From the NCBI GenBank assembly GCA_951406725.2, contig OX597817.1, forward strand, positions 72,912,001 through 72,976,000: 64,000 nt of DNA, in the 5' to 3' direction. The notes under the pieces are model-generated. The model searched no databases. It saw only the letters and a list, made by a program, of their open reading frames with translations, and had not been told where the DNA came from. The first letter of the stretch is position 1. Every line of letters begins with the position of its first letter. The position numbers and the translations under genes were made by a program. This DNA comes from Octopus vulgaris (lineage: Eukaryota). Shown in pieces: positions 10,629-51,320 of this stretch.

Positions 10629-11485
10629 CTTGTTTAGTCAGGAGGGAATGGCAGTGCCTTCAAGACTGGTGGGCGGGAATGAAAATTTCCTCAAACTAGA
10701 TACCTTGCCCAGTGGCTTGTTGCAAAGTGGGCACTGCTAAAGGCACCTAAGTACTAAGTGGTGGTGTTAAGGGTAGTGAAGGATTAAATCAACCACCCAA
10801 GTGAGCCATAGTGGGATTTGAACCCAAAAAGCAAAGAGTCAAAATAAATATTCTAACACCCTAAAGATTTCAGTTGTCTGCTGCCCTCAACTCATTGGCC
10901 CTGCTATATTCAGTAGTACAGTAACATTGAAACACACTGTTAATGCACCAATAATTCATTAATATAGATAAGGATGCATTATGTATGAATGTGCTTGTCC
11001 TCTCCCTAAACACCAATACTTGACAACTGGTGTTGGTTTGTTTACATCCATGTAACTTTTCAGTTTGGCAAATGAAACCAGACCAATAGAAGAAGTGTAA
11101 TTTGTTCAACTAAAACCTTTCAAGGCAGTGTCCCAGCATGGTCACAGTCCAATGACTAAAACAAGTATACGAAAGTAAAAGATGGAAAGCCTTTGACCAT
11201 GAGCCTATTTTGTCAAGCATAACAAAGTTAATAACTATTATTCACAGCCATAGATTCCAACTAAAAGAAAAACATACATCACTAAGCCATTTTTCATTCT
11301 TTTTGTACCACTGAAGATTGTCATATCCATTTAGATTATAATCCACTAGATTATTGGTATGAAGACATGAATTTAGTGGGTATATTTACTAAATAATACA
11401 TATACTTTCCCATCCTAACCATGCACTCTTACAAATAATACGCATATACACCTCAGACTCTCTACACTTCCTGTAAATGAATAAA

Positions 11486-12403
11486 CAGATATGTTCAGTT
11501 TTGCTCACAAATTTTAAAATTATACTTTTTTAACTAAACAGTTTGAAACTTCGTATACAGGTGTAATTTCTCATAGAAGTTATTTCATGTTAAAGTTGTT
11601 GTATTTGGGTAATTTTAACCTATCAATGACATGTATTCAGTTGAAGAAAGTTACTGCTGCTTGCAATAGTAACTGAAGAGGAACAACTTCCAGTTCATCT
11701 CAACTTAATTTTACCCCTCTGTTCAATTTTATTTTTGTTTACTGCCTGTGTTGCCTATTACATGCATTTTATTTTTGTGCTCGTGTCACAGTAACCAGTA
11801 AACATCGAAGAATCAACAGCAACAAGGAAAAAATATTATTTACATATATTTATTCGTTTGTCCAACATGTAGTTAGAAATACAGCAGAAATTGTAGTGGC
11901 AGTGACAAGTTTGCTCACTGGTTGGCAGTTAATAATGTAGAAGTGGCTGTCTGCCAGTAGAGAGGGAAAGAATAAGGAATGCATGGTGCTGACTAGAAAG
12001 GAAGAAAGGATAAAGGTGGCATCGTCTTTCTTGCTGCTGCAAGCTTTTCTTTTGTGTCAGCTATGACCAAAGAGCAATACTTTCCCTTCACCCTTTGCTT
12101 GATATACAAATAGAACAGAGTGGTGACATTTAGTAGAGATGACTTGGTAGTTGTTCTTCTTTGATTACTATTGCAAACAGCAGTAGCTTTCTTCAACTAA
12201 ATACACCTAATCGATTAGTTAAAATTACCCAAATATGACAACTTAAAGACAAAATAACTTCTAATATATGAAATTTTGTCAAAAATGTTGAAAGTAAAAC
12301 ATGTTGAGCATGAGAAATTGCACCAGTACATGAAGTTTCAAACTGTTTAGTTAAAAAAAAATAATTAAAATATCTGTGAGCGAAACTGATCAGATCTGAA
12401 TAA
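11486..12403. mobile_element. Non-autonomous DNA transposon/MITE with long diverged terminal inverted repeats
   Basis: About 11486-11725 is the reverse complement of about 12113-12403 (TTTTTTAACTAAACAGTTTGAAACTTC vs GAAGTTTCAAACTGTTTAGTTAAAAAA; TTTGGGTAATTTTAAC vs GTTAAAATTACCCAAA). Confidence 0.8.
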
Positions 12404-12629
12404 ACATATACCAACTGCCAATACTCTATCAACATTTCATTTTTGAAGAGTGTATTTAATGCCTTAAAATTTGTGCATGTATACAACCATAGAAACATAC
12501 ACACATCATATGCGTGTGTGTGAACAAGAGAGTAGAGGAAACAAATACCTCAGGAAAGTGATATGCATGCTAAATATGCATATAATAGAGATTTTACATA
12601 TTTAAATATAGTGAGTTGAAAAACTTCTT

Positions 12630-13980: not shown

Positions 13981-14578
13981 CTTTATTGCAAGTTAAATTC
14001 AACTTACATTGAAAATCAACAAAATTTGCTTTAGAAGCGTTGAGAGGTATTGAAAGATACAGATAAGGAAATAATTTTATTTTCAAACACAGGATAATGC
14101 TAATAATATAGCATGAACAGGATAAACTATCCACATTTTTCAGAAAAATCTGTTGGTGGCCAGCCATGAGACGAACTCACATCCCTGTGATTACATGTCA
14201 AATGCTTTACCATTAAGCTAAACTGCCCGAACGACAAACTCTTCTGCAAATTTAGGATATATAAATCTAGCTTTATAAGATGCTATTGCATGTTAAATTC
14301 AACTTACATTGAAAGCCAACAAACAAAGTTTGCTTTAGAAGCATTGAGATGCATTGAAAGATGCAGATAGGGAAATAATTTTATTTTCAAATGCAGGATA
14401 ATGCTAATAATAAAGCACTTGACGCGTAATCATAGGGATGTGAGTTTGAGTCTCATGGCTGGCCGCCGACAGATTTTTCTGCAAAATATGGATAGTTTAT
14501 CCTGTTCATGCTATATTATTAGCATTATCCTGCGTTTGGAAATAAAATTATTTCCTTATCTGTAACTTTATTGCAAGT
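13981..14578. repeat. Tandem plus inverted (foldback) repeat of a unit of about 300 bp
   Basis: 13984-14108 is repeated directly at 14284-14411. 14411-14564 is the reverse complement of about 14058-14210. CTTTATTGCAAGT is present at both ends (13981 and 14566). Confidence 0.85.
14154..14228 (-). pseudogene. tRNA-Thr-like (TGT) pseudogene / tRNA-derived Pol III cassette
   Basis: Minus strand GGGCAGTTTAGCTTAATGGTAAAGCATTTGACATGTAATCACAGGGATGTGAGTTCGTCTCATGGCTGGCCACCA. It shows a D arm (GCTT/AAGC), T arm (GTGAG/CTCAT) and acceptor pairing. The T loop is shortened and the anticodon stem is mismatched. A partial second copy (CGT) lies at 14411-14467 on +. Confidence 0.65.
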
Positions 14579-19487: not shown

Positions 19488-19579
19488 GTGTGTGTGTGTG
19501 GTGTGTGTGTGTGTATACACATATATAAGTCTATATATGTATATGTGTAAGTATGTATATATATGTATATATTTAGAGA

Positions 19580-28253: not shown

Positions 28254-29429
28254 TGTAATAGTTGTATTGGGTTGCTGATTTTAGTATCCTGATATATATA
28301 TATATATATATAGAACTCTCAAGAGAAGTCCTGTGCAACCATGTGGAAATCATGGGATGAGAGATGAACGAGCTGGCAGCCTAAAAGGGGCGATAACACT
28401 ACACACGGGGAGGATGGTGCTAAGAACTGTATAGAGTGGCCCTTGGAAGTGAGGTCTTCACTCATTAAGGTGTGCCCACAGCTTTAGTATTGGACATTGG
28501 GCCTGAATTTGTTGCATCAAAGAATATGTTGTCATCAATGGGTTGCAGAAAAATTGAGACACCTGCTCACAGTCCAGCACCTAACGACACTGTTGAAAGG
28601 GTTGTACAAACTGTGGAAGCTGTACAGAAGCATTTTGATTTGAAGACAAGGAATTTTGGCAACTACTTGAACAAAATTCTGTTCAACTATTGGAGTTCCT
28701 TGGGTAGTTGTAAATTGTTACCAGCTGAAATGTTAATGAAAAGACCACTTAGGGTTGCTGTAAACCCATTCTTTAAAATAGGTGAGGATGTAATACACAA
28801 AACCATATTCGACAAGGTTGCATCCAAAGCAAAAGATGTGATTCATGCCAGAAAGAATACAGCATGTATTAAGAAGGAGGGTCGCCCACTGCAGTTAGAA
28901 GCAGTTGAGCAACTGGCCCCGCTAAGCACATGGAAATCAGAACCAAAATTGAGCACACCATCTGGCACAATGGTTCATGCTGAGTAAGCAAGGATGCCTA
29001 ACAGTGACAGTGCGACCATATCAAGTCCCCAGGCAAGGCATGACATCACCACCAGAGTTATAGAAGTGGAGCAGTTTATTATTAGCAATGCTAGCTGTTG
29101 AAGATTGAACAGGAAAATTTCATCAAGTCCTCAACTGAGATGAAGTGCAAGAATTGCAGCAGGATGTAAAAAGCTAAAATGTTTGAAAAGGAATAATGTG
29201 AGTAGCATTGGGTTGCTGATTTTGATATCCTGATATGTATATATATATATAGAACTCTCAAGGGAAGTCTTGTGCAACCATGTGGAAATCATGTGATGAA
29301 AGATGAACGAGCCGGCAGCCAGAAAAAGGGTGATACTGCTACACATGGGAAGGATGATGCTAGGAAGTGAGCTGTGTAACTTGCGGTTATGAACATTCAA
29401 TATATTTTCTAAATGAGTGAAACACAACA
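28254..29429 (+). mobile_element. Internally deleted Gypsy-type LTR retrotransposon
   Basis: Direct repeats at 28254-~28426 (truncated 5' LTR) and 29197-29429 (3' LTR, TG...CA). A purine-rich tract precedes 29197. Flanks GTTAG/GTTAA form a 5-bp TSD with one mismatch. An integrase fragment lies between the LTRs. Confidence 0.85.
28472..28987 (+). pseudogene. Retrotransposon integrase (rve) core and C-terminal remnant
   Basis: GVPTALVLDIGPEF...GCRKIETPAHSPAPNDTVERVVQTV...PAEMLMKRPLR matches the Ty3/Gypsy integrase pattern G-P-x-x-L-V-S-D-N-G-P-x-F...H-P-x-S-N-G-x-x-E-R...S-P-A-E-L-L. Confidence 0.85.
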
Positions 29430-29860: not shown

Positions 29861-30734
29861 TTGGTCTGAATTCTTGCAACAGAGTGAACACCACTAAGTT
29901 AAGTTTACCACTAGAAACACTGGGATTACTAAAACACTACAAATTACCACCAAACACAAAAGGAAACAGTACTATGCATTCTTGAAGTGTTCACAATGTC
30001 ATAGAGTTCAAATGATGACAAATGAACAAACCTACTGAAACAGGAATGAAATTGAAAAGAAACATTCCTAAGCAGTCATATTATGTCGATGATGATTAGA
30101 ATAATGAAAGTGATGCAGCTGTATTTCAGGATAGTTCATATTGTGAAGTAGACGGTGGGGGGAGGGATATTATTTCATTTGTTTCCAAAATAATGCGTCT
30201 CATAGACATCAAAACTACAAATCACAATATGACCATCTGCTTCTTGAATTGTGTTATTGAAAAGAAAGAAATATTTTGACAAGAGTGGGATATCAAAATG
30301 TATTATCTAAAGAATTGCTTTGTTTAAGTAGAAGTTTGCATCAAGTCATTAAGTTTATTAAAAAATAGTTCATGTTGAGAAATAAAGAGTTTAAAACAAA
30401 ATAGCTAAATATCTGAGTTGTGCTCATTTGGTAAGTGAACTGAACTGAGATCATGTGTTGGAACTAAAACAATTGCATTGCAATAGTTATTGTAGCTATG
30501 AAAAATAAAGCCAGCCTGAAGTATAAGAAAGCAGAGTTTGGTTATTAATGACCAGAGCAGAGAAGTACAACAAAATTGATAAAATAACTTAGATACTGGT
30601 TCCATTTAATTAGTAGTGCCTTCCTCATAAATTGTGGCCTTTGTAACAATATTGGAAATCCTCTTAAGCTGATTGCAAGTATAACCATTTGGTGAGAAGG
30701 AGAATAAAATAATTTTATGTAAATAATTACCTGT

Positions 30735-34944: not shown

Positions 34945-35178
34945 ATCATCATCATCATCGTTTAGCGTCTGCTTTCCATGCTGGCATGGGTTGGACGGTT
35001 CAACTGGGGTCTGGGAAGCCAGAAGGCTGCACCAGGCCCAGTCTGATCTGGCAATGTTTCTACAGCTGGATGCACTTCCTAACACCAACCACTCCATGAG
35101 TGTAGTGGGTGCTTTTTACGTGCCACTGGCACAGGTGCCAGACGAGGCTGGCAAACGGCCACGATCGGATGATGCTTT
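34945..35178 (-). mobile_element. 5'-truncated RTE-type 3' tail
   Basis: Close reverse complement of 42130-42360. Confidence 0.85.
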
Positions 35179-35275
35179 TCCAGGCAGTGACCTGAATAAT
35201 AATAATAATAATAATAATAACAACAACATTGAAAAACACCTTAGGAATGAGAACCCAGGTTCAAAATTTCCCCTA

Positions 35276-35320
35276 GACACCTGATGAAGGCTATGGGTAT
35301 ATCAGCTGAAATGTTATGTC
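35276..35320 (+). ncRNA. Minimal type I hammerhead-ribozyme-like motif (C3-G8 core) in a Penelope-type terminal fragment (about 35225-35368)
   Basis: GACAC-CTGATGA-A-GGCT...AGCT-GAAA-TGTT-ATGTC. Core intact, stem II GGCT/AGCT, stem I GACAC/ATGTC with one mismatch, vestigial stem III. A decayed relative lies at about 2500-2540. Confidence 0.65.
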
Positions 35321-38300
35321 AACAACAAACAAGATGAGGGCAAATATCCATCAAATGTAAATAATGTAGGATAAGTACAGTTGGTCAACACCAACCCTAT
35401 TACTCTTCTGGTAATTATATCAATTTTTCATTGGTTTCTGTAATTAGGCAGTGGTCATACTGGGGCACTGCCACAGAAACGAAAGATGAAGCTGAACTGA
35501 GAGTCTGCCTCAAAGTAGAATGCAACTTGCTAGAAATAACAACCAAATTTCCCTTAAATCACACCCTAGCATCTTAAATAAGAATATGAAATGTTTAGAT
35601 AATGTAGTATGACATGCACACATTTAAAGAAACAGCTAGATTGTCCTTGATCATAGTTTAACTCAATTTAAATTGGGGCTAAACAATAACATAAGGCATA
35701 GTTGAAGCCCAGTATGATTTCAACTTAGAGGGCCGAGGAACAAAACTACATACTTATAGGGAGGGCAGTTTTTCATATTTTATTGCTCCTTTCTAGTATT
35801 AAATATGCAAAAGGATGGATGTCCACAGCTGGGATGTCCCTAGGTAAAAAGGTCTGTTTAATCAGGGTTAACCTGAGACTAAATAGCATATAGTATAAGC
35901 CAATGAAGGAGCTTTTATATGGTAAATCAGCCTGCTAGAAATAGCAACTAATTCTTTCTTAAATCACACCCTACATCTTAAAAAGAAAATAAGAAAAAAA
36001 CCATTCAGATAATAGAATCCCAGATTTACACAAAGACAAGTTCATCATTGTTGGAATGTCTTTAATCACAGGTCTATCTGATCAAGTTTGACTCAGGGGT
36101 TAAACAATATTCTCATCATTACATTATGTCTGTGGTGAAGAGGAATAAGTAGCCATAATAAAACAATGATAAAGTCAAAATATGGCACAAAAGGAAGTGG
36201 AGTACAGGAAAAATGAAAATAGAATTCATATATTACAGATGCAACACCATCCCTTCATCACCACCACCCCACATTGTTTCTCACAGATGCAACTCCACCA
36301 ACCTGTTTTTCTTTTCCCTTAGCGATGAAAAATATACTGAAACTTGTTATATTAACATGGTTGAATCTCAGACATAATCTAGAGAGAGAGAAAACACTTC
36401 AACTGACAACTATTAAGGGCTTGAGTACAATGGGTAGACTTATTTGCATAATTGATGGATTGGCTAGTATAATTACAAAATGATTAGCATGATAATTCTA
36501 CTCTACTGAATATATCTATAGATTTTAGCAAACATTCTATGTAATTGACAGATGTAAACAACTTAACACAGGTGTTAATCTAGTCTTTAAAGCCAGCTGG
36601 TGAAAACAATAGACATATTTCAGGATTTGGAGCACAGATTCAAGGTCTCAAATTTTGGAGAATGGTTTGAATTAATTGATTAAATCAACTCTGATACCTG
36701 ACTGGGACATTATTTTTATGACTCCTACAGAAAAGTGAATGATGAAGATTTTGTCAGAATGTAAAGGGATACAATTAACTACTGTAAAGCATTAAATCTG
36801 ATGCTATTCTGGACTCATTCATTTATTCAATGTCCATTTTCCATACAGGCATGATTTTAGAGGGAGCTCTTCCTGTCACCAACCCTTACCTGGTTTATAT
36901 ATAAAGGATATCTTTATTCTACAAATCTTCTATTATGAAATAATATAAATACAAAGCTGGAGACAAATTCAGACAGTGTAGGTATCCAACTAGCCCTTGG
37001 GTTAACATCATTACATGTATCCTACAATCCTGAAACACAACACTGTTTCCATTCTCTCTAGTAGTCTGTTTAAAGTTGGTTTACTTAAACCTATATCAGT
37101 TTCAAAATTATCAGTGGTTAGGGTATGCTAGTGTTTTACATCTAACTAAAATCCATCTACTTTTCTTTGAACATCAACAACATTAAATTTACTAGTCTCA
37201 GAGTACTCCTCCACTAAATGACCCTTCCCACCAAACATTTTTGTAATTACCCCACCATCTACACATACTCACTCACGCAACAACACCACCACCACATGCA
37301 AAAAGAGAAATTTAAGTATCCAAATAGAACACTTCCATAAGTTCTAGGATAGGAAATTAGAATTTTAAAAAATATTAAAAAAAAAAGACACAAATAAATA
37401 CCCCTAGTACACAATGTATCACATGAAGGAGGTTAAATTAAGACTCTTTATCATTGACTTGGTCTTTCTAAGCTATTTTCATTTTTCTTATAAGACATCT
37501 TAATTTTTCTTATAAAAATATTTTGGTTTTTCTTATAAAACATTTAATCAAAATATTCTGTAGAAATTTTGTATAAATTCATCTTTAGCAATCTCAATTA
37601 AAAGAAATTTGTCATATTAAGATTCACTACTCCACTTCATAAACACAATTACAATTTTGGATTTTTCATTTTCTCTTTTTCTTATTTTTAATATATATAT
37701 GTGTGTGTGAGTGAATGTGAGTAGGTTTGTGTATGTGTATTTCATTGTTTACTTGGTGATAAATCTATTTAAGAATTTAAGCTTTAACTCCTAATTGCAT
37801 TGCATGCAATATTCACTCTTTAACAGAATCTTCATTTTGTATGAAGGCGATTTTAATGCACTTGTAATATAAAGCAATTTGATGGTTGATTTCTGTTCGC
37901 AGGAAACACATTTAATTGAAGAAAAAAAAAACGCACAACAAACTACCAATTAAACAATTGAATAAATGTATACTTTGATTGAAGTTAAAATAAAAAATTG
38001 AAGAAAATTTTAGTTGTTATAAAGACAACTGCAGTGTGTTTGGAAATTAAGTGATGTTTGCCTTGAAGGGAGTACAACATACATTTTTTTTTTATTAGTA
38101 AATATCTCTAGTGATGGCCACTTTATAAAATCATAATTTTTAATACACTACCGTATTTCATTTTACAATAACCAAACAATAACTACTACTTTTTTAATTA
38201 CATTTATGTAGAACCTCTGCTATATATAGCGTAAACACTAGACACACACTACATTCTGTAGTATTCACACACACAACACTACAGAACAGAGAGATCAGTT

Positions 38301-38321
38301 TCGAACACCATTTCTCCAAAG

Positions 38322-38361
38322 ATTTCCTGAAGAAGGGGTCATGACCCTGAAATACTGAAAT
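38322..38361 (+). ncRNA. Minimal type I hammerhead-ribozyme-like motif (CUGAAGA core)
   Basis: ATTTC-CTGAAGA-A-GGGGTCATGACCCT-GAAA-TACT-GAAAT. Stem I is a perfect 5 bp and stem II is palindromic. Position 16.1 is C instead of U. Confidence 0.65.
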
Positions 38362-40851
38362 ACAAGCTAAAAATACAAACCAACAATTTGTATTTTTTCT
38401 TACAATCTGTATAATCTGTAAAAAAATTAAAATGTTCACATACACACATATATGATTTTTCCTCATATACATATATATATATGGCCTTGAAGTGTTAATT
38501 CAAATCAAACTGACCACCAGTACTTATATTTATGTCTGGTACTTATATAGGTTTCTTTTTGCCAGACTGCTAAGTTACAGGAACACAGACAGCCCCGAAT
38601 CATTGCAAGATAAGCATAAACACATACATATGTGTATATATATATAGTGAATTTGGAAAGCAGAAACTGCAGGAAGTTGTGTGTGTGTGTGTATGCACAA
38701 GTTTATATTCCATAATTGTCCCCACCTGATTGAAACAGTGATTATGTTGACATTATGACTAGTCACTCTGTGCTTTCAAAGACATCTGGAATAAAAGATC
38801 CTTAACTTCGAAAAGAAGAAAAAGTTGGCTGTAAAAATTCTGCTTTGGAAAACTTCCTGTGTAATTTATCCAAGCTAGCAAGGAAAAACAGATGTTAAAT
38901 GAATAAATGAATATCTTATAAATACACACACACACACATACACACACGTGTGTGTGTGTGCTTGCATATTACTATCTTTATGCTGAGTGGATTTGGCCAC
39001 TTTGATTGCTAAAAGGTTAATTCAAGCAAAGTAAAAACTATAGTTCAGTTCATAGAGTCAGCTTCACACACTGACAGTTTTGTAATTAAAATTGATTTGT
39101 TGCCACAGATTTTAACCATATAATCAATTAAATTGATGTCTCTTCCAGCTTCCAAACTGCAGCTGTGTTTTTATTTTTAATTTTTTTCTTTTAATTGATT
39201 CAGAAATGTCCCAATTCATTGTCAGTGTAGTCAAAAATGTCACTACAACTCATATATGTACTTGCTAGTTGCACTGCCTAATCTGTCAGATTAAAGTAAT
39301 TGTTCTCAAAAAGTATGAATATAGTGAATCACTGGTAGTCTCCACTGGTAGCCTATTTATACAAATTTCAAGAAACTAGCAAGGACACTCACTCACACAG
39401 GCACATGTGCTTTGCTGTCTTCTGAGACACATAATGAATTTTGTAGATGCTTAGGAGAGAAGTACTAAGTGGCTGTTGGATCTATTAGAAATAGCAAATT
39501 TCACTTCCTGCCAATTTGATCAAAGTAATGGTAAGGTTAACATTCCTTGCTGCCATTATGACCTGTTGTTCTGTGCTTTTGAAGACTTCATTGTCATCAT
39601 TTAACATCCATTTGTCCATGCTTGATGGAATTTGCTGAGGTAGACTTTCTATGGCTGGATGCCCCTTCTGTTCTAATAAGGCATTTCCCTCCAGTGGGAC
39701 AAGATTTTCATACCATACTTGTATAACAATAGCACTCATTTATAACTATCACACAATGTCTAGACAAGTGTATACACAAAAAACTATATATACAGAATGG
39801 GCTTCTTTTAGTTTCTGTCTACCATATCCATTCACAAGGCTTTGGTTGGTCCAGGGCTATATGAGAAGGCAGTTGCTGAAGGTGCTACACAGTGGGACAG
39901 AACACAAGACTATATGTTTGGGAAGGAAGCTTAGCCACACAGCCATGCTTGTGCCCATGGAATATAAAAGTTTGTTACCTGAAAAACAGGTGACAGTGAC
40001 AGGGAGAGCATCATTATCATCATCATTATTTTAGTCTACTTACCATGCTACCATGGGTTAGATGGTATGACAGAATCCAATGAGTCAGAAGATCATGTCT
40101 TACTATAATATCTCAGTCTTGGCATGGTCTCTCCAGCTGGATGCCTTCTTAACATCAACCACATTACAAAGTAAAATACCTGCCTCAAAAATTTGTGCTT
40201 AAGCCAAGCTAGTATGGCTTAGATGGAAATGTACAAGTGGTTGAGTATTTCATAGGCCTTAAGGCAATCCTCAAGCAAAGATAGCATAACATACTGTGTG
40301 ACAAGGGTGGCTGATCATTTGCATTATTTTTACAACAAAATTCCACTCATTTTCAATCAACCCGATTTTGCTACTGAGGCTTAGGTTTATCAAAGGCTAT
40401 AGTAAAAGACATTTGCCCAGGATGCCACAAAGTAGGATTAAATCCATGGCCTTATGATTGCAAAGCTATCTTCTACACCATTTGAACATACTGCAACTAC
40501 TATAATTGACTGCCATCATTATCATCCTCATTTGACATCCTTTCTCAATGTTGGCATGAGTTGGATGACTTAAACCAGAGGAGTGCATCATGCTTCATTG
40601 TCTGCTTTAGCATGGTTTTTACAGCCCTTAATGCCAACTACTATACAAAGTGTACGATAGAAGGCTTAACTCTTAATACCAACTCACCTAAGACCACCCA
40701 CGTTTATATAATACAAACTTCCAGTTTTAAAGGAGTAAATTAAAACCTTTCATCAAAAATTTACATTAATTTGTATTCCAAGCACCAGCTTCATAAGGAC
40801 AAAGTTATTTTACCAAATCTTCGTCATTTTCACGATTAATTGAAACAAAGG

Positions 40852-41070
40852 CAATATGAAACATGCAGCACAAAGTTTTGTCAGTGAACAGATCACGGTC
40901 TCAAAGCAACAAAAATATTTTGACATATTAAATTTAAATGTTGAAGTGAATCTAACGGTTTTTGTGTGTTTCTTAAATGGCTTATAAACACCTTCCACGC
41001 TGCAATTGTTTTCGTTCCAGCACACGATCTCAGATCAAGTCACTCGCTATGCAAGTACATCTCCGTAATA
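40852..41070 (+). mobile_element. Penelope-type terminal repeat fragment with a hammerhead-like motif (40880-40924)
   Basis: GTCA-GTGAACA-G-ATCAC...GCAAC-AAAA-ATATTT-TGAC. It adjoins a piggyBac-like MITE fragment at about 40725-40850. The family assignment is inferred. Confidence 0.45.
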
Positions 41071-41409
41071 TATATATACTTAAATTGAGGCACCTTGCTA
41101 GTTTGGTATAATCTGCACACTCAAACACTACTATTTGAATATTGAATATCAAGACTCTGTGTACGGGTATTTGTACCTAATATTCCTGTAGTATATGCAG
41201 ACAACACAACCCAGCTAAGTGGAGATGTCAGTTCTTGGTAATTCAAACATGTACTTTTTATAAAAGTACTTTCTATAGTATTTCTGAAGTGCAAATTCTA
41301 GGTTATAAATCAGTAACAAAGATGTACAGGTGTCAATTCATGAATTGGCAGCTGTACATCTTTGTTCCTTATTTATATTATATATATATATATATATATA
41401 TAATGTCAG

Positions 41410-42365
41410 TGTACATACTCGACAGAGCGTTAGCACCTTGAGAGAAATGTTGTACCTAAGAAGCATCAGTTGTGGTGTGCAAGAGAGACGATTGCGCTGG
41501 TATGGTCATGTGGCGAGAATGGATGAAGATAGGTGTGTGAGAAAGTGCCAATCCCTAGCAGTTGAGGGAACCCGTGGAAGAGGTAGACCCAGGAAAACCT
41601 GGGACGAGGTGGTGAAGCACGACCTTCGAACTTTAGGCCTCACTGAGGAAATGACCAGCGACCGAGACCTTTGGAAATATTCTGTACGTGAGAAGACCAG
41701 GCAGGACAAGTGAGCCCAGCCCACTTATGAATGCCTTTCCTCCCTTGGACACAAAGACCTGTTGAGGCAAGCGAAGTCGATATAGAACCTCATCCGACGA
41801 CAGACACCCATGCCAACCCCCCATGCTTGCGAAGACATGTTGGGGCAAGCGAAACCGAATTGAACCAGCCAGGATCCCTGGCCTGGTGGTACGTAAAAAG
41901 CACTATCCGACTCGTGGCCGTGGCACGTAAAATACTCCAATGCGACCGTACGACAGGCACCCATGCCAACCCCCTTTGCTTGTGAAGACATGTTGGGGCA
42001 AGCGAAATCGAAATCGAATTGAACCAGCCAGGATCCCTGGTCTGGTGGTATGTAAAAAGCACAATCCGACTTCGTGGCCGATGCCAGCACCGCCTCGACT
42101 GGCTTCCGTGCCGGTGGCACATAAAATACACCAATCTGACCGTGGCCGTTGCCAGCCTCGCCTGGCACCTGTGCAGGTGGCATGTAAAAAGCACCCACTA
42201 CACTCACGGAGTGGTTGGCGTTAGGAAGGGCATCCAGCTGTAGAAACATTGCCAGATTAGACTGGAGCCTGGTGCAGCCTTCTGGCTTCCCAGAACCCCG
42301 GTCGAACCGTCCAACCCATGCTAGCATGGAGAACGGACGTTAAACGATGATGATGATGATGATGA
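41410..42365 (+). mobile_element. 5'-truncated, relatively young RTE-clade LINE (ORF C-terminus, 3' UTR and (GAT)n tail)
   Basis: Open frame ...ERRLRWYGHVARMDEDRCVRKCQSLAVEGTRGRGRPRKTWDEVVKHDLRTLGLTEEMTSDRDLWK...* (stop at 41713) carries the RTE signature RLRWxGHVxRM...GxRxRGRPRKTW. CpG-rich. Confidence 0.92.
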
Positions 42366-43181
42366 TATATATATATATACACATACATACATATATACAC
42401 ATACATATATCCATACACACATGCATATATTTATATACTCACACATATATACATACAGTTATACATGCTCACACACGTTACTTTACATACATTTTTCTAT
42501 ATGGATAAGATATTTTTTGTATCTTCAAACATATGCATATTTTTTTTTTTACAGTTGATTGACTTTTCTATCACTAATGAGTAAGCTGGGAAATACGACT
42601 CAGGTCAGCTAGGTCATGTGTCTTTCCCAGGAATAACACAATGGCTATATTATTCTTTGAACTCCAGACTGTTAGGACAGTCATCCACTATATTTACCTC
42701 ACAGTTATTATTCCTCAGATGTTTCTTTCTCACTCAAACATATTTCTTAGTGTGTGTGTGTGTGTAAGTGTGTGTGTGTGTGTGCATACACACCAGTATG
42801 AACATGCATTTTATCACCTGCAATTCAAAGAGCTAGTCTTGTCATACACTGCATCATGTTGGTACTGTTTCAGGATTACCTTTCAAAGAAAGAACCTCTA
42901 CAATACAGTACAGACAATGATATAAGGAGTAGGTAGGTCCACTGATTGAATAACTAGAATACTTATTGTCTTCATAACTGATACGAGGTATATTTGCATG
43001 CGCATGCACACACATCCGCAATTTAACAGTATCATATGCTTACACACACACACACTCTCATGCACATGTTCAGATGTATTGAAAATATATATACAGCAAG
43101 ACAAAGATTCCACTGAATGGATAAGGTCATTTGAGAACCAGGTGAATAGCATTTTGAAGCAATATACATATACATAATATG

Positions 43182-43221
<40 letters not shown>

Positions 43222-45684
43222 AAATATGGATTAAGTGATAAATAATAATAACAACAATTAGAACAACAACAACTACTACAGCTAGAATAAAAATAAAATG
43301 ATATTTAAAGAAGACCATAACAGTATACATAATAACATCAGTGTGTTCTTCCCATTTGTTTTACTGCTGACCTCATAAAAGATGCTGTTAAATTTCATGC
43401 AACAAACGAGTGAGTGTACGAAGCACAGAGAAATGAGAAATCAATAAGAATGATACAGACTTTAAAGATGAACGGTAAAATTTGTTCTTGTCTTCCTTCC
43501 ACCATATGAATATAAATACAATAAAAACAATTTTTATGTTCAGCACGACTCTCTTGTTTTTATCTCCAAAGTCACTAGCTATCATACCTGACCACAATTA
43601 ATAGTTATGGGAACTGACTTTCAGTCAATTCACGCTCTATTATTTGATGAGAGTATTCTCGTTCTGGTTTCAACAATACACCAAAGCCCCTTTTATGGTA
43701 AAAAGAAGAAATGAAGTATCAGAAAGTAACAAGTGAAGTAAATATTTACCAAAGCTTTGAAGGACCTTTAAGAGTGTCTATGCTTAGCTCTGGTGTCATG
43801 GTATTAAGTGGAAGAAAAAGACATCTCCCTTGGGATAGGTTGCTTGTCTATTGCATGTAATGCTCTCAGAAGAAGATATGGCACTTATTCTTGAGAGCTA
43901 AGTAAATTGTCAGGGTAAATTTAATTACTATTCTGTCTGAAAAAAAGTATATGCTTGCAACAAATTTGAATTTAATTTATTTCTCCTTGAAATTCAATGA
44001 ACCATTGAAAGAATCTCAAGACTGCCCAATTTGCTGGTGATAACAGCTAAATCTTTTTGAAAACGCAGCCATTTTGGAAAACAAAAGGCACTGGATAATG
44101 TAGTTTAAAATATAAAATCTAAAGTGGAGGAAGAAGTTGGTCATAGATGGAATACTGAAGGTGATGATGATGATGGTCAGCATCATTGTAACCATCATTT
44201 TAATGTCTACTTTTCCTGAAAGAGATCTGTTATTATGAGTGTGAGTTGATGTGTTTGTTATACTCTGAACATTCTGAGCTACAGGCACTGACACTGTCAT
44301 TTCTCTGTCAACATATCACCCACTAGTTTCATATCTTGGAAGAGATGTGAAATAAGAGAACCCTTACTTGGGAAACGGGTGAGGGTTAGCAACAAGGTAT
44401 CTGGTTGTAAAACAATGCCTTAATAATACATTTGTCAAATGTATAACATGGAAAAATTAATATAAAAACAAAAACAAAGAAATAAGGGTCAGCTTGGCTG
44501 TGCTAATTAACAAGTACATTAAGGAAATTTATGCGAGATATCTACTTAAGTTGAATATGTTCTACTGGATGCGTAATGGTGATGGTGGTGTTTAACCCTC
44601 AGTCAATCCTCTATCTGAAAAGATAGATCTATGATGATGGGCAGCTTCATTAGATTGCCAAACAAAATGGTTTAGAGATCAAATCATGTAGAGATCAACT
44701 GTGCACTTCACCATTCTAAGTTCAATAAATAAAAGTATCAGAGTGAATCTGATGAACTATACTATCCATCAAAATATGTGGCCTTCTTTTAATTATACAA
44801 TCTTTCAGAGACCTTGAAAACAATATAAAAGTTGGTGTAGAGAGCTAGACAATGGTAAAGATGATTTATAAAGCAATATAGTCATACATTTTTTTGAGTG
44901 GTTAATAAAATGAACAGAATTAATCAGCCAACACTCATAGTTTGAATATCACCATTATAAAATATATTTTAGGCATTACCTCAGTATTAAATATACGTAT
45001 TCCTATTTGATACTGCCTCAATTTGGGTACACTAAAATCATTTCAATTACACTTTCCCTGGCAGACATGAACTTAAAGATTTTCTAAGGAAGATGTGGTG
45101 TTCATATAGTTCTCAAGGATTTTAACAATAGAAATGAATTATCACAGACAGTACCAAGAGATTGAAACTGTACTGCTTACATGAGAATTTACCTTTTATT
45201 TTGTTTGATTAGAATATAACTTGAAAAACAATAACCCAAACAATCATATTCACATGTTTTATAAACATTCATAAAATGCTTAATAATACTATCATTTAAT
45301 ATTTTTAATTGCAAATAAAATATGAATGTAAGAATTACAGCTGTGTAAATAAAATCGTTCTATGTACTAAGCTACCTACTAAATCTAAACTGACCTAATC
45401 ACTCTTCTGTTCCAAAAGGAGACAGAGCAGCTGCATAGACATAGGATAAGAAAGCTTTCTCTCATTTGTACATACAATCACAACCAACACACAAAAGAGA
45501 ATAAATACACAGAATACATGTGTAGTGTTTACATAAAATATACATAGATATATGTTGAATATAAATAGACACACTTTCACACAGCACAAGCACACACACA
45601 CACATTTTCACACAACACAAGTACAAAGACACAATACAACTTTCACTTTATTAGCAAAACATATATCATGGTATGTACAATATA

Positions 45685-45960
45685 TATATATATATAAAGA
45701 TGAGAATGTGTGTCTGTCTGTGTGTGTATGTCTATGTGTCTGTGTGAATCCCTAAAACTCGAGAACTACACAACCGATTTCATTCATATTTTACACATGC
45801 CTTACTTAGGGTCCATGCAGTGTCATGGGCCAAAAAATTCCAACTTCTTGCCAAATGCAAGCCCAGTGAAACAATAACATCTCTCTATTCTAATGTGAGA
45901 TACTTTCAGTTTAATAGTTTCACTATTAATACTGAAACTAGAAACTTTTGAAGTGAAACT
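45685..45960 (+). mobile_element. Probable non-autonomous Helitron-type 5' end
   Basis: TATATATAAAGATGAGAATGTGTGTCTGTCTG...AACTCGAGAACTACACAACCGATTTCATTCATATTTT resembles the microsatellite-bearing 5' ends of invertebrate non-autonomous Helitrons. Confidence 0.45.
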
Positions 45961-46019
45961 ATTATCTCACATATATACATGCATATATATATATATCATG
46001 TGTGAGTAATTGTGTGGTA

Positions 46020-46298
46020 ACTTGGCTTGTGTCTTCTGCTATAGCCTCAGACCAACCAAAGCCTTGTGAGTGGATTTGGTAGACAGAAACTGAAAGAAAC
46101 TCATCGTGTATATATGTTAGTGTATGTGAGTGTGTCTTTGTGTCTGTGTTTCTCCCTCACCACTGCTTGGCAACATCCCCATAACTTACTGGTTTGACAA
46201 GAAGAGACCGATATAATTAGTACCAGGCTTATCAAAATAATAAAGAAAAAAGCACTGAGGTTGATTCATTCAAGAAAACATTTTTCAAGGCAGTGTCT
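46020..46298 (+). mobile_element. SINE family A
   Basis: Body and tail as in 8370-8688. Confidence 0.8.
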
Positions 46299-46397
46299 TA
46301 TATTTTTGTTTGCCCACTCAATTGTATTTATCAATCTATCTTTCTGTGTAGTAGATGGTAAATATGCTCTGGAATAATCAGTCAAAGAGTTTTTTGT

Positions 46398-46463
46398 CAC
46401 ATGTTCTTACTGTTTTTGTTGAATAAAATCTGTTGAAAAAAGTTGCAATAATTATGCACCAAC

Positions 46464-46468
<5 letters not shown>
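46398..46468 (-). mobile_element. Solo mariner terminal inverted repeat abutting (TA)n
   Basis: Minus strand TATTGGGTTGGTGCATAATTATTGCAACTTTTT resembles Hsmar1/cecropia-type TIRs (TTAGGTTGGTGCAAAAGTAATTGCGGTTTT). Confidence 0.6.
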
Positions 46469-46532
<64 letters not shown>

Positions 46533-47429
46533 TATATTTGCTCGACTAAAGGCTGTGCTCTAGCATGGCCACAGTCAAATGACTGAAACAAGTAAAAGAA
46601 GAACATATATATAGATATATATATAGATAGATAGATAAATAGATATATAGAGAGATAGATAGAGAGGGAGAGAGAGAGATAGACAGACAGACAGATAGAT
46701 AGATAGATAGATAGATAGATGCAGAGCATGGTGCAGCCACTGGCTCTCCAGACCTCAGTCACACCATCCAACTATGCCAGCATGGGTTGGATGACTAGTA
46801 AGAAGAGAGGAAGTTATTCTCAGACAAGAGATCTGACCCATATGTTTGCAATAAAGAATACTCTACTCAATAATCTATGAGCCAGGCAATAGTGTTAAAT
46901 GAGATGTGAGATTAAGCCTACTTCCCAAGAACTATGTACCCACAATTATCCACACAGTTTCTGTCAACCAAATTCTACACAAGGCTTTAGTTGACCTAAG
47001 GGTATAGGAGAAGGATACTTAAACTAAGGTGCAGCACAAAAAGACAAAATCCAAATATTTGCAATTGCAAAACAAACTTTTTAACTACACAATTATGCCT
47101 CCATCCAGTATCTTACTAGTGTCCTTAGTGAAATGAAGAAGGATTAAGTAAACCAGGGTATCACAAAGAACGTGGTCATAATGAATTAATGCTAAAAAGA
47201 ATGATTGAGTATTTGTAAATGTTCATATTTCTACAGAAAAGGAATCTAAGACACAAAACTTATCTGATCTAGTTATCATTGTCAGACAGAGCAACATTTG
47301 GCTACTTACGTGACTTAAATATGACAAAGCATATTTTGAAAGAGCTGAAGAGCACTTAAAGATCAAAATGTATGAACTTGGAAGGAATACCAAATCATTG
47401 GAATTTGGAGTTCTAAAATAAAGGTGTAC

Positions 47430-47910
47430 ATTTCCAGGGAAGAAATTGAATTTTCAAGCAAATGAGTACAATGCTGAGAAAATGTGGGAATTTCAAGAGT
47501 GAATAGCAAAATAGCAACAGAGTAAATACACAAGCAAAGGAAAAAATCTATAAGAGAAACTGTTGGTTTCCAAATGAACAGGTTTCAAAGTAAAAAGAGT
47601 TTCCAGCTAAAGTAGTGCACTCAAAATGAAATGAATAAGTTACCAAGCTAAGTTAAGAGTTTCCACATAAAAGAGATAATTCCAGAGCAAAAAAGTTTCC
47701 TTTCTGAGAAACTTTTACTTTCTAAAGCTAATGTGTTTCTTTCAATGCAAAAAAGTTAAACTTCCAAGCAAAAGAGTTAATTTACTAGCAAAATCGTTGG
47801 TTTCCAAGCAGAAGCATACTTTCTCAAGTAAAGAGTTATATATTTTTTTGTACTAAAACAGTCACTTTTTAAACAAGAAAGATATTCCAAGTCAAATCAT
47901 TACTTTCTGG
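47430..47910. repeat. Degenerate minisatellite, unit about 20-21 bp (TTTCCAAGCAAAAGAGTTAA-like)
   Basis: Recurring TTTCCAAGC(A/T)AA...GAGTT at roughly 21-bp spacing. Confidence 0.55.
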
Positions 47911-48467
47911 TCAAAATTGTTACTTCCCTTTGTGAAAAAAAATTATGAATAGAAAAACAGGAAAGAAAAAAAATTATAAATAGAAAAACAGAAAAGAAAA
48001 AAAAAATTATCATATGTGTAAGTGATGATTGTGTTTTCATTCATGGATAAAGTGCAACAAACACTCAAGTGAAGAGTTGGGAAAAAGAGTATTCCCTTGC
48101 AAGTATGGCAATGTGCCCTTTTACAAAACACTTCACACAATTTGTACCCTCTCCAGCACCCTACAGTAAAACTGGTGCCAGACATTGTTTATATAACTCT
48201 TCGTCTAAACAATGGTAAGACTGAAAAGATAATCCTGGCATTTAGACAACATAAAAATCTCAGTAAGAAAGGAAGAAATGAAAAATGTTAAGAACAGGAA
48301 TAAAAACCCAATGCACTTTTGAGGTACTCTCCTTTGTCTACTGAAATGTGATAAACAGACAGATAATTAGATAGAGTGATATGCAAATGATTAACTAAGA
48401 TGATAGATAGACAAACAGATAGATAGATAAATAGATATAGGTGTATATTATACAGACAGACAGACAA

Positions 48468-48531
<64 letters not shown>

Positions 48532-48794
48532 CTTGGCATAGTCCTGTGTCATACCAGCTCATGAAACCATCCAATTCATGCCAGTATGGAAAATGGATGT
48601 TAAATGGTTATGATGATGATATATAACTATAGGCATGGCTGTGTGTTTAAGAAGTTCATTCCCAACCACATGTTTTTGGGTTCAGTACCACAACTTAATA
48701 CTTTAGGCCAGTGTGTTCCAATACAGCCCAAGTTTAACAAAAACCTAGTGAATGGATTTAGTAGCTGGAAATTGAAAAAACCCTCTCTTTATCG

Positions 48795-48836
<42 letters not shown>

Positions 48837-50064
48837 GTATTTTCTTATCTTGTCATTGTGTGACAATTGAATGAGTGACTCCATGATACAAATGGTGTCC
48901 TTCATCTCCAAAGGATTAGGGGAAGTATTACATTACTTCAAACAGGTGAAGGTTAGCAACAGGAAGGGTATCCAACTACAGCTATAAAAATTTGACAATA
49001 AATTTTGTCTGATTCATGCTAGCATGGAAAAGAGAATGTTAAATTGATGATGATGATAGATACATACATAGCTACAGAGACAGATAGATAAAGATATATT
49101 TGTAAGACACAAATCAAAACAAGTACCAAAGTAAATATCAGTGTATGTAATGGAAAAGAACACCCATAAAAGTGGAGCTGTTATCACTATATGAAATTCA
49201 ATGTATAAAGATACATGCATGCAGAAAAAGTAGATTGAGAATTGCATTCTGATGCCAATTTTTAGTATCTATACGAACACATACATACATCTGCACTTAC
49301 AATGCAAACTTGCAAACACATCTATGCACTTAGATGCACTAACACACATGCATTTACATGCACTCAAAAACACACATTCTCACACATTTGAATGTGAATA
49401 CTGATACATACATACACATATCATTACTCACATGAGCTAGTTACTATTTAAAATTACTGGGGCATTAGGTGCATTTTCAGCAGCCATTGATGAGGTTGGA
49501 ATGATTAAGTAAAAAGAAGAAGAAAAAGAGATAAAAAAGAGAGAGAAGAAAAGGTATACAGAGAAATAATCAAATAATTACTTTTGTTGTTGTTGTTATT
49601 ATTAATACGCTTTGTATATTTTCCACAGAAAAAAATACAGTATTAATGATATAAATATATAATTTTGGGTACAGAAGTATATTAATTGATTGAATCAACA
49701 AGCACCACACATTAGAAACAGTTACATTTATCTACCCACCTACCAATGACCCACATTCAACGAGAGTATCTTTACATAGTTGCTTAACTTGCTAAAAATT
49801 GCAGTCAGATTTTCATTAGATCACACCATATCTTCTTAAAAATGGGAGGACACATTGAATAGCGCACTAATGGGATGCCACAGCCAGTTACTGCGTGAAA
49901 CTTGCAATGAACCACAGGTAGTACATGTGGCAGTTAACATGTCATGTTATACCTTGCTCAATCATAGCTAGCATGGGGTTCAATATATACACACATACTA
50001 GAAAAATTGTGAGTAGGGAGAAAACTAGGGTTCTGGTTCAAATGCCTGCTACACAGAGTATGAA

Positions 50065-50428
50065 GGTAAAGAGTAAAGGGACCCTCTTCGGTCATGAATG
50101 ACCGTGGGATTGCACCTAGAATGTTCCGCTCCAAGGCACAAGTCCAGAAAAAGTTGTTTAATGGAAGAGTAACAGCCACTCATGCATACCAGCCTCCCCT
50201 CTCCATGCCAGCAATGTTGTCCAAGGGAAAGGTGAAAGCCAATACAGTTTGGCACCAGTGATGGTGCAACTCATTTCTACAGCTGAGAAAACTGGAACAA
50301 TGTGAAATAAAATGTCTTGCTCAAGAACACAATACACAACGCAGTCATGGAATCAAACTCACTGTCACATAATTGTGAGCCCAATGCTCTAACCACATTG
50401 TGAGCCCAATGTTCTAACCACTGAACCA
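50065..50428 (-). mobile_element. tRNA-derived SINE, family C
   Basis: GGGACCCTCTTCGGTCATGAATGACC...CAACTCATTTCTACAGCTGAG...TCTTGCTCAAGAACACAA...CTAACCACTGAACCA. Related copies at 56015-56265(-), about 54960-55085(+) and about 55118-55400(+). Confidence 0.8.
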
Positions 50429-51051
50429 TTAAATTATTGAAAAGGACTCAAGGACCAAGCAAATTATTATTACTATTATAGTAATATCACTATCACCACA
50501 TGTCACACTGCTTTTCTCTAAAAATATGTAACAGCTGCATAGGGGACCATTATTAATACTATTATTATTCAAATACCTCTTTAACAAAAAATATAAAACA
50601 CCAAAAATTGACACATCAGTAGTATAGCTGAATATTTTGTGGCTAATACAAAACTGAAGGAAGGTATAATGCACTGTGAGAAAATTTGAAGTCATGTACT
50701 ATAGTACTATGATCTGTCAATTGATACAACAGACAGGAATACTTTTAAATTAGTTGTGCTTGAATATAGTGACAATTAAACAGACAGATATTGTATGTGC
50801 GCATTATGAGTGTAGATATGGCTGTATGGATACAAAATTGATTTCGAAAAAATGTGGTTAATGGTTCAATCCCTCTGTGGGGTACCTCGTGCAAAAATGC
50901 CTTCTATTATAGCCTTTATTTTACTTGCAATGCTGATCAATGCCTTGTGAGTAAAGTTAGTCAAATGAAACCGGATGAAAGCTTGTCATGTTTGTGTGTA
51001 GTGGGAGAGGTATGCATGAATGTTTATTTTCCATGAGTCTGTGTAGGCATT

Positions 51052-51320
51052 TCGTTTCTGGATTTGGTTTGCAAGATTCTTTATATGAGTTCATGTGTTG
51101 AAGCATATTCTGTTGTGTTTGGGGAAAGTCATTTCATTTTTGCGCCTTATAATGTAACACACTCACCGGCAAAATTTCCACCTATTTCTTATTTTTATTT
51201 TCCTAAAATTTTCTTTGCGTCTTGCAACCTTTTTGCAACCTTTTGAAAAGGTTGCAAGACGCAAAGAAAATTTTAGGAAAATAAAAATAAGAAATAAGTG
51301 GAAATTTTACCGGTGAGTGT
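51052..51320. mobile_element. Penelope-type fragment with an inverted terminal duplication (about 75-bp palindrome arms, 51159-51320)
   Basis: Arms at 51159-51233 and 51246-51320 differ at two positions. The direct repeat GTGTAGGCATT occurs at 51041 and 51317. A hammerhead-like motif sits at the centre. Confidence 0.65.

What the first reader, a model, noticed from the sequence alone, without database searches (positions are those of the whole stretch)
35276..51277. Minimal hammerhead-like ribozymes in unrelated repeats appear to co-vary at the catalytic 3-8 pair (C-G, G-C, U-A)
Seen: four short motifs share one architecture: short stem I, 7-nt core, one extra purine, stem II, GAAA, tiny stem III (palindromic in two copies, one substitution from palindromic in the other two), cleavage site, then stem I'. 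Cores are CTGATGA (35281), CTGAAGA (38327), GTGAACA (40884) and TTGAAAA (51243). U4-G5-A6 and A9 are constant while positions 3 and 8 are complementary in every case. Established: the hammerhead core needs a Watson-Crick 3-8 pair, and Penelope-like elements carry minimal type I hammerheads that cleave as dimers. Inference: this genome hosts several Penelope or retrozyme-like families with core-variant ribozymes that CUGANGA-based searches would miss. All copies here have disabling or CpG-type substitutions, so the claim concerns the families, not these copies.
Basis: partly seen in the sequence, partly recalled or inferred. Interest (0 to 1): 0.8.

Follow-up and report, generated by a model that had tools for sequence, protein, structure and literature searches.

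The report
Swapped-core hammerheads in sister Penelope retroelements
The four motifs are decayed copies of hammerhead-shaped RNA motifs from the ends of jumping genes, and related lineages of one Penelope-type element carry the core letter pair as C-G, U-A or G-C; the G-C form, in thousands of copies, is predicted but not shown to cut itself.

Summary
Observation confirmed; interpretation largely supported, with one correction. All four cores are at the stated positions, each in a high-copy repeat whose majority sequence has full minimal-hammerhead architecture. Sites 35281 and 38327 are ordinary C3-G8, 40884 is G3-C8 (95 of the first 100 of 6,905 genome matches) and 51243 is U3-A8.

The last two are not unrelated. 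Both end in the N-terminal peptide of a Penelope-like (PLE) RT-GIY-YIG protein and flank decayed full-length ORFs. With a third lineage (C3-G8) they form one clade of about 50% identity, in which the 3-8 pair and all three helices change compensatorily.

U3-A8 in PLE hammerheads is published. I found no natural G3-C8 in the papers I could search, but Lünse 2017 was unreadable.

Cleavage is untested. Against strict need: 220 exact G3·G8 copies (partly a subfamily), C at position 9 in the youngest intact lineage, and no pile-up of copy ends at the cleavage site. The window copies are all damaged.

The scan had already noted G3-C8 and U3-A8 cores elsewhere in this genome. I did not see the sister-lineage link in those notes. 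New variant of a known kind.

The parts
35177..35368 (+). F1 element: last bases of a tRNA-like head (35177-35194), (AAT)n spacer, then the hammerhead-bearing body
   Evidence: head is tRNA-like by A/B-box-like motifs and relaxed ARAGORN calls in 3 of 30 loci, no Rfam tRNA hit
35277..35319 (+). F1 minimal type I hammerhead, canonical C3-G8; this copy has C11.1>T, C15.2>T, G1.1>A and a 1-nt loss at stem II
38270..38405 (+). F2 element, old PLE 3' end; relatives L037 and L046 carry a GIY-YIG remnant upstream on the same strand
   Evidence: profile E 1e-4 and 0.05
38322..38361 (+). F2 minimal hammerhead, canonical C3-G8; this copy has T at 11.1 and C at 16.1
40863..41069 (+). F3 solo pLTR of a Penelope-like element, followed by (TA)n
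40877..40927 (+). F3 minimal hammerhead with G3-C8 core (40884, 40889); predicted cleavage after 40920; this copy has G10.1>A, G12>A and two further G>A changes in stem II
40977..41069 (+). 31 codons of the N-terminus of the PLE RT-GIY-YIG ORF, cut at the element's 3' end
51051..51233 (-). F4 left arm: inverted pLTR copy truncated inside the core, with the ORF N-terminus at 51132-51052
51240..51320 (+). F4 right arm: 3'-truncated pLTR copy; with the left arm it forms a 75-bp fold-back
51240..51276 (+). F4 minimal hammerhead with U3-A8 core (51243, 51248); predicted cleavage after 51273; this copy has C11.1>A and its stem I 5' strand replaced by the inversion junction

Best explanation
The motifs are decayed copies of minimal type I hammerheads, three of them from terminal repeats (pLTRs) of Penelope-like retroelements, and sister lineages of one clade carry the 3-8 pair as C-G, U-A or G-C, likely through compensatory change while self-cleavage was still useful. 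Shown: the architecture, the three states, their homology, and the position 92-150 nt upstream of the ORF start. Inferred: a transcript of a tandem pLTR-ORF-pLTR array brings two hammerheads together through the palindromic stem III; they would cut after U17 and release a unit-length RNA, probably slowly and with protein help. Also inferred: insertion copies mostly uncut RNA from a start site inside the ORF's first 30 codons, which would leave thousands of short, often inverted, solo pLTRs. G3-C8 is predicted to be a weaker but working core. F1 is likely a non-autonomous, tRNA-headed element that uses the same route.
For: Homology: the F3 and F4 terminal peptides are 13 of 26 identical without gaps; 0 of 20,000 shuffles reach the score, and 8 of the 13 identical residues use different codons. 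The same peptide starts an intact 1,309-aa ORF in tandem arrays of lineage F7 (RVT_1 E 9e-4 then GIY-YIG E 3e-4, both under the curated cut-offs). G3-C8 pLTRs flank such an ORF at both ends in L350 and at the 3' end in L355 and L357; U3-A8-type pLTRs flank it at both ends in L363, L367 and L368 (5' cores of L367 and L368 each carry one substitution) and at the 3' end in L360 and L371. The protein tree separates three groups, 47-56% identical. Across 9 homologous pLTRs, 3-8 is paired in 8 with three Watson-Crick types, and pairs I.2, I.3, II.1, II.3, II.4, II.5 and III.2 each show two Watson-Crick types. With 3, 8 and 9 free, all 8 recurring families in 1.65 Mb of fetched loci have a Watson-Crick majority at 3-8 (5 C-G, 2 U-A, 1 G-C). 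Intact F3 copies fold with stems I and II as the lowest-energy structure. A separate young PLE (781-aa RT-GIY-YIG ORF) has U3-A8 too. In a PLE hammerhead, C3G/G8C partly restores cleavage and cleavage needs the element's protein (PMC11167929, passages).
Against: No cleavage data. 220 exact F3 matches have the mispaired G3·G8, and they partly cluster as a subfamily (linked upstream variant in 14 of 31 against 1 of 68; 17 label changes against 26.6 shuffled). The youngest intact lineage has C at position 9 in 44 of 49 local copies, while older relatives keep A9. Copy 5' ends do not pile up at the cleavage site (5 of 92 F3, 3 of 126 F7, 2 of 31 F4 within 3 nt), and 52 of 92 and 79 of 126 copies span it. 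F4's stem I is only 3 bp and is not predicted to form in a monomer, and F1's stems are not predicted to form with flanks. The double hammerhead lies 4-10 kcal/mol above the best dimer fold in all 6 cases (the energy model does not score the core). Only three well-sampled lineages carry the 3-8 comparison, the tree has no root, and R-scape was not available. The loci scanned were fetched by targeted searches and are not a random sample.
Confidence: 0.72

Rival explanations
1. The fold is a relic or a protein-binding structure. The hammerheads were inherited from a cleaving ancestor, but cleavage no longer matters in this clade; the helices are kept for another reason (RT binding, translation, splicing), and G3-C8 was fixed by drift through a dead intermediate.
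For: G3·G8 copies partly spread as a subfamily. The most recently expanded lineage has C9. Inserted copies span the uncut site. In the anole PLE, catalytic mutants do not affect insertion in vitro and no RNA ends were found at the cleavage site (PMC11167929, passages).
Against: Both derived lineages sit on a Watson-Crick double change at 3-8, and none of the three main lineages has a mismatch majority. U4, G5, A6, G12, A13, A14, the 15.1-16.1 pair and a non-G at 17 are kept in all three. A fold kept only for binding would not obviously need these (inference).
Confidence: 0.23
2. The variant cores are chance look-alikes in AT-rich repeats; the 51243 motif is just the centre of a fold-back (MITE-like) element.
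For: A loose descriptor gives many hits in the window. F4's stem I is 3 bp and the window copy sits in a 75-bp fold-back. Rfam finds no hammerhead in the window.
Against: The motifs sit at the same place ahead of homologous ORF starts, with compensatory changes in all helices. Strict-descriptor background is 0.08 hits per 64 kb. The fold-back is two inverted pLTR copies, a known PLE arrangement (PMC8557442, passages), and F4 also occurs as direct repeats around an ORF. The same UUGAAAA core with a 3-bp helix I is among published PLE hammerheads (PMC4209133 Fig. S3).
Confidence: 0.04

Closest known systems
Minimal hammerheads (min-HHR) of metazoan Penelope-like elements, including the U3-A8 variant of Schistosoma Cercyon elements (Cervera and de la Peña 2014, PMC4209133; read: main text parts 1-2 of 4, supplement file 2 parts 1-2 of 3; supplement file 1 not searchable)
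   Same: Architecture (short helix I, extra base after A9, G10.1-C11.1, GAAA, palindromic tiny helix III, H17), location in pLTRs, mostly solo or opposite-strand copies, and the U3-A8 core (about 1,300 hits there; the core UUGAAAA is identical to F4's).
   Different: G3-C8 is absent from the 56 representatives of Fig. S3. The extra base is G in F3, F4 and F7 against consensus H. Three 3-8 states occur in sister lineages of one genome.
Natural hammerhead core variants (Perreault et al. 2011, PMC3088659; read: section 8)
   Same: Natural covariation of C3-G8 to U3-A8.
   Different: That section reports only U3-A8, not G3-C8.
PAc, the Poseidon PLE of the green anole (PMC11167929; read: passages)
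   Same: Hammerhead in the pLTR next to the ORF start; element ends fall inside the ORF's 5' part; engineered C3G/G8C partly active.
   Different: There G3-C8 is a laboratory double mutant of a C3-G8 ribozyme, and the ATG is at stem II. Here G3-C8 is the natural majority and the ATG lies 92-150 nt downstream of position 3.
Small hammerhead variants that cleave as dimers (Lünse, Weinberg and Breaker 2017; not held, seen only as a citation in PMC6765202)
   Same: Diminished stem III, PLE association, dimer cleavage (as summarised in PMC6765202, passages).
   Different: Cannot say. Its large collection may already contain G3-C8 examples.
Non-LTR retrozymes and Sm-alpha-like SINEs (bioRxiv 10.64898/2026.07.22.740005, part 1 of 5; PMC6765202, passages)
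   Same: Non-autonomous hammerhead-bearing derivatives of PLEs; F1 has a promoter-like tRNA-type head before the hammerhead.
   Different: No head-to-tail arrays of short units were seen in 120 loci; partners are mostly inverted.

Membership tests
PLE minimal type I hammerhead | N3-UGAN-N8-A9 core with Watson-Crick 3-8 pair | tested here: met
   Family majorities F1-F4. Related lineage F7 has C at 9 in its young copies.
PLE minimal type I hammerhead | Extra base after A9, stem II opening with G10.1-C11.1, then GAAA | tested here: met
   damaged in the window copies
PLE minimal type I hammerhead | A15.1-U16.1 with palindromic mini stem III and H17 | tested here: met
   ACGT, ATAT, AATATT, AATT with U17 in family majorities; F2 has C at 16.1 in 9 of 29
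PLE minimal type I hammerhead | Stem I closing the junction | tested here: met
   4, 5, 7 and 3 bp for F1-F4; F4's 3 bp is within the published range but not predicted stable alone
PLE minimal type I hammerhead | Self-cleavage after position 17, as a dimer | not testable with these tools
   Only assembled contigs were offered, which cannot show RNA ends
Penelope-like element (C-terminal EN) | ORF with RT followed by GIY-YIG endonuclease | tested here: met
   F7 intact ORF (Pfam scores under cut-off); F3 and F4 ORFs by tblastn to it. F2 remnant only; none found for F1.
Penelope-like element (C-terminal EN) | Direct pLTRs in partial tandems, inverted 5'-truncated partners, two discrete 3' ends (tail) | tested here: met
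   L350, L363, L367, L368, L312, L313; inverted partners in 13 of 30 F1, 5 of 30 F2 and 14 of 29 F3 loci; ends near +128 and +187
Penelope-like element (C-terminal EN) | Clade assignment (Neptune, Nematis, Poseidon) | tested here: inconclusive
   Cys-rich linker before GIY-YIG resembles Neptune/Nematis types; no reference proteins were available for a tree
Non-LTR retrozyme | Short head-to-tail non-coding tandem units, each with a hammerhead | tested here: not met
   Neighbouring copies in 120 loci are mostly inverted; F3 and F4 carry an ORF start
Rfam Hammerhead_1 (RF00163) | Covariance-model match | tested here: not met
   No hammerhead family among window matches at E<=10 or at gathering score in L350, L367 and seven F1 loci; other C3-G8 families of this genome do match

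The most novel reading that the evidence does not exclude
F3 is a natural, genome-scale G3-C8 hammerhead that really cleaves, and one retroelement clade has walked through three Watson-Crick states of the core pair while also spreading G3·G8 and C9 versions. That would be a natural mutagenesis series showing when a retroelement needs its ribozyme and when it can lose it, and it would imply that CUGANGA-based surveys miss whole lineages.
Probability: 0.4. Interest if true: 0.68.

Novelty: new variant of a known kind. Interest (0 to 1): 0.5.

Why it matters
The role of the hammerhead in Penelope-like elements is an open question (PMC8557442 and PMC11167929, passages). This clade offers intact natural variants (C3-G8 with A9 or C9, U3-A8, G3-C8, G3·G8) in homologous positions, next to a young lineage with intact ORFs, so the link between cleavage rate and spread can be tested directly. 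A natural G3-C8 family of at least several thousand copies would also extend the known natural core and justify relaxing 3 and 8 in ribozyme searches. The general concept and U3-A8 are already known.

Tried and rejected
Fifth candidate on the minus strand at 40756 (long apparent stem I): four relatives do not keep the core or stems; rejected as chance.

Looking for an F3 ORF by open-frame length in the peptide search: none of 150 scored hits ran beyond 155 aa. The link came only through the sister lineage's N-terminal region.

A pairwise BLASTP of the two peptides found nothing, but its coordinates were three codons off; redone.

G3·G8 as the ancestral intermediate between C3-G8 and G3-C8: not supported. 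The one full-length G3·G8 copy (L353) nests among F3 copies with weak support, and the 31 G8 copies are not one clade.

Cleavage-defined 5' ends: no pile-up (the script's printed N17 offsets were wrong, so I recounted from its table with offsets 36, 34 and 31).

Expression: no RNA holder listed; contigs cannot show RNA ends, and no splice joint at the putative acceptor was seen.

Pfam, NCBIfam and PDB searches of the whole or long F7 protein gave nothing.

Literature for natural G3-C8: searches 'hammerhead + G3-C8' (1 paper, an engineered variant), 'hammerhead + C3-G8' (2 papers), C3G/G8C/G3C8/U3A8 terms, 'core variant + Penelope' (0), and searches showed none. Lünse 2017 and Przybilski and Hammann 2007 were not held, and bioRxiv supplements were closed.
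Full report
Observation. The window is AT-rich animal DNA (2.8-Gb genome) full of microsatellites and repeats. Searching the genome with each site gave four repeat families, here F1 (35281), F2 (38327), F3 (40884) and F4 (51243), with 1953, 354, 3446 and 1523 first-look candidates, of which 40 were scored and 30 fetched each. Their majority sequences have a complete minimal type I hammerhead. Positions 3/8 are C-G in 29 of 29 F1 copies, C-G in 18 of 29 F2 copies, G-C in 28 of 28 F3 copies and U-A in 19 of 19 F4 copies, after removing the window copy and 11 duplicate loci. Those loci were picked by likeness to the window, so I also used a genome-wide exact pattern with 3 and 8 free: 6,905 matches, control 0, and 95 of the first 100 listed were G3-C8. 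Contigs of four public runs under four organism labels cover the F3 core, and no other letter at 3 or 8 is listed at the 4% threshold (three rows were not shown, and mismatching ends can be clipped). The window copies are damaged: F3 has lost G12, F4 has lost C11.1 and its stem I, F1 has lost pair 1.1-2.1 and F2 has C16.1. None passes a strict descriptor and Rfam lists no hammerhead in the window.

Chance. A loose descriptor hits many places. A strict one with positions 3, 8 and 9 free gave 2 hits with A9 in 25 shuffled windows, neither Watson-Crick at 3-8. In 1.65 Mb of fetched loci it gave 155 distinct hits in 8 families plus 4 singletons. Every family has a Watson-Crick majority (five C-G, two U-A, one G-C), as do the 3 singletons with A9. 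These loci are a targeted sample, and one family came from an Rfam search that favours C-G.

F3 and F4 are sisters. Both families stop at two discrete points about 128 and 187 nt after position 3, and both carry an ATG-started frame that runs to the far end. The two peptides are 13 of 26 identical without gaps, no shuffle of 20,000 reaches the score, and 8 of the 13 identities use different codons (my notebook entries give 11 and 7, which was a miscount). A profile of these peptides found further elements with a hammerhead at the same place. One of them, F7, is young: all 150 scored hits to its endonuclease domain were identical. In tandem arrays its hammerhead lies 135 nt before the ATG of an intact 1,309-aa ORF that begins with this peptide and has RT then GIY-YIG (both under Pfam cut-offs, and the whole protein gave no hit). 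I searched the genome with F7's N-terminal region and fetched 40 of 152 hits chosen for low identity. G3-C8 pLTRs flank a decayed full-length ORF at both ends in L350 and at the 3' end in L355 and L357. U3-A8-type pLTRs do so at both ends in L363, L367 and L368 and at the 3' end in L360 and L371. A quick protein tree of the 21 rows with enough RT cover separates F3 and F7 with full support from the F4-type rows; identities between lineages are 47-56%. Over 9 homologous pLTRs the 3-8 pair is G-C, U-A or C-G in 7, U·G in 1 and C·A in 1 (two single decayed copies), and seven helix pairs in stems I, II and III show two Watson-Crick types. It rests on three well-sampled lineages and an unrooted tree.

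The other two. F2 is an old PLE 3' end: L037 and L046 have a GIY-YIG remnant 200-360 nt upstream on the same strand. F1 has a tRNA-like head and an (AAT)n spacer in front of the hammerhead (Rfam does not call the head a tRNA). No ORF link was found for F1, but 13 of 30 loci have an inverted partner within 450 nt upstream, as PLEs do (PMC8557442, passages). A separate young PLE with a 781-aa RT-GIY-YIG ORF carries another U3-A8 hammerhead in 13 of 30 GIY-YIG loci.

Mechanism. From the published model (PMC4209133; PMC6765202), two minimal hammerheads in one tandem transcript pair through the palindromic stem III and cut after position 17. Here that would free a unit RNA starting 50-100 nt before the ATG (inference). 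Intact F3 copies fold with stems I and II as the lowest-energy structure. F4 forms only stem II, and F1's stems are outcompeted when flanks are added. The double hammerhead is 4-10 kcal/mol above the best dimer fold in all six cases, closest for F3. Inverted pairs such as the window's F4 put the two motifs on opposite strands and form a long hairpin, so they cannot act as a dimer. In the anole PLE, reverse transcription starts inside the ORF's 5' part, cleavage needs the protein, C3G/G8C is partly active, and catalytic mutants still insert (PMC11167929, passages). That matches the ends seen here and predicts a weak but working G3-C8 core.

Evidence against a strict need for cleavage. 220 exact F3 matches (3.2% of 6,905) have G3·G8. 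They share an upstream variant (14 of 31 against 1 of 68, Fisher p 9e-8) and cluster on a tree with position 8 masked (17 changes against 26.6 in shuffles, 0 of 500 as low), so some mispaired copies were likely propagated. The young intact F7 has C at position 9 in 44 of 49 local copies, while older relatives L352 and L377 keep A9. Copy 5' ends are not enriched at the cleavage site, and most F3 and F7 copies span it. The 3-8 swap therefore suggests past selection for an active core but does not show present need.

Known and new. U3-A8 is a published natural variant, in general (PMC3088659, section 8) and in PLE minimal hammerheads (PMC4209133; Fig. S3 has the same UUGAAAA core). G3-C8 appears in what I read only as an engineered variant and is absent from the 56 representatives of Fig. 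S3. Eight library searches showed no natural case. Lünse 2017 and Przybilski and Hammann 2007 were not held, and unseen supplements may contain it. Two earlier notes of this scan report the G3-C8 family and U3-A8 cores elsewhere in this genome; the few lines shown do not mention the sister relationship or full-length elements. From recall the repeats look cephalopod-like; I did not test this.

Verdict. Real; a new variant of a known kind. The identity as PLE minimal hammerheads with a swapped 3-8 pair is well supported, and activity is untested. Interest 0.5.

Noticed in passing
L312 (minus strand, oriented 3663 and 8261), L313; older relatives L352, L377: A very young PLE lineage with many intact ~1,310-aa ORFs has C in place of the conserved A9 in its hammerhead core in 44 of 49 local copies; older relatives keep A9. 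Its stem III is also not palindromic.
   Followed up: partly
L384-L413, L353: 220 exact genome matches of the F3 family carry a mispaired G3·G8 core and partly form a subfamily.
   Followed up: partly
L350:470-490 and 4735-4750; window 40863: About 22 nt before the F3 core, full-length copies have a branch-point-like motif, pyrimidine tract and AG; 10 of 92 copies start exactly there and 9 of 38 have GAG in front. Possibly a 3' splice site as in fly Penelope, but no donor or splice joint was found.
   Followed up: partly
L151-L154: Young two-ORF PLE (479 aa without Pfam hit, then 781 aa RT-GIY-YIG) with a U3-A8 hammerhead that has no extra base after A9 and a very weak A-U stem I.
   Followed up: partly
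L208, L209, L212, L221, L227: C3-G8 hammerhead family with a roughly 70-nt insertion in loop II, related to a shorter family (L213-L235).
   Followed up: no
L009, L011, L015, L029; window 35177-35228: F1 is a chimera of a tRNA-like head, an (AAT)n spacer and a hammerhead-bearing tail, often in inverted pairs; its autonomous partner is unknown.
   Followed up: partly
window 30415-30477 (-) and 19532-19574 (-): Decayed fragments of the same PLE clade's ORF start, without a recognisable hammerhead.
   Followed up: no
window 28469-28984 (+): 172-aa frame with a weak integrase/transposase-like match (IS481 model E 0.003, far under cut-off).
   Followed up: no
window 11473-12411 and 14053-14569: Long inverted repeats (arms of 100-156 nt, 82-94% complementary), the second with a weak tRNA match at 14157-14227 between the arms; possibly further inverted retroelement pairs.
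   Followed up: no
L139 (+27), L307, L190: Three further single U3-A8 hammerhead-like motifs with different stems, suggesting more U3-A8 families in this genome.
   Followed up: no
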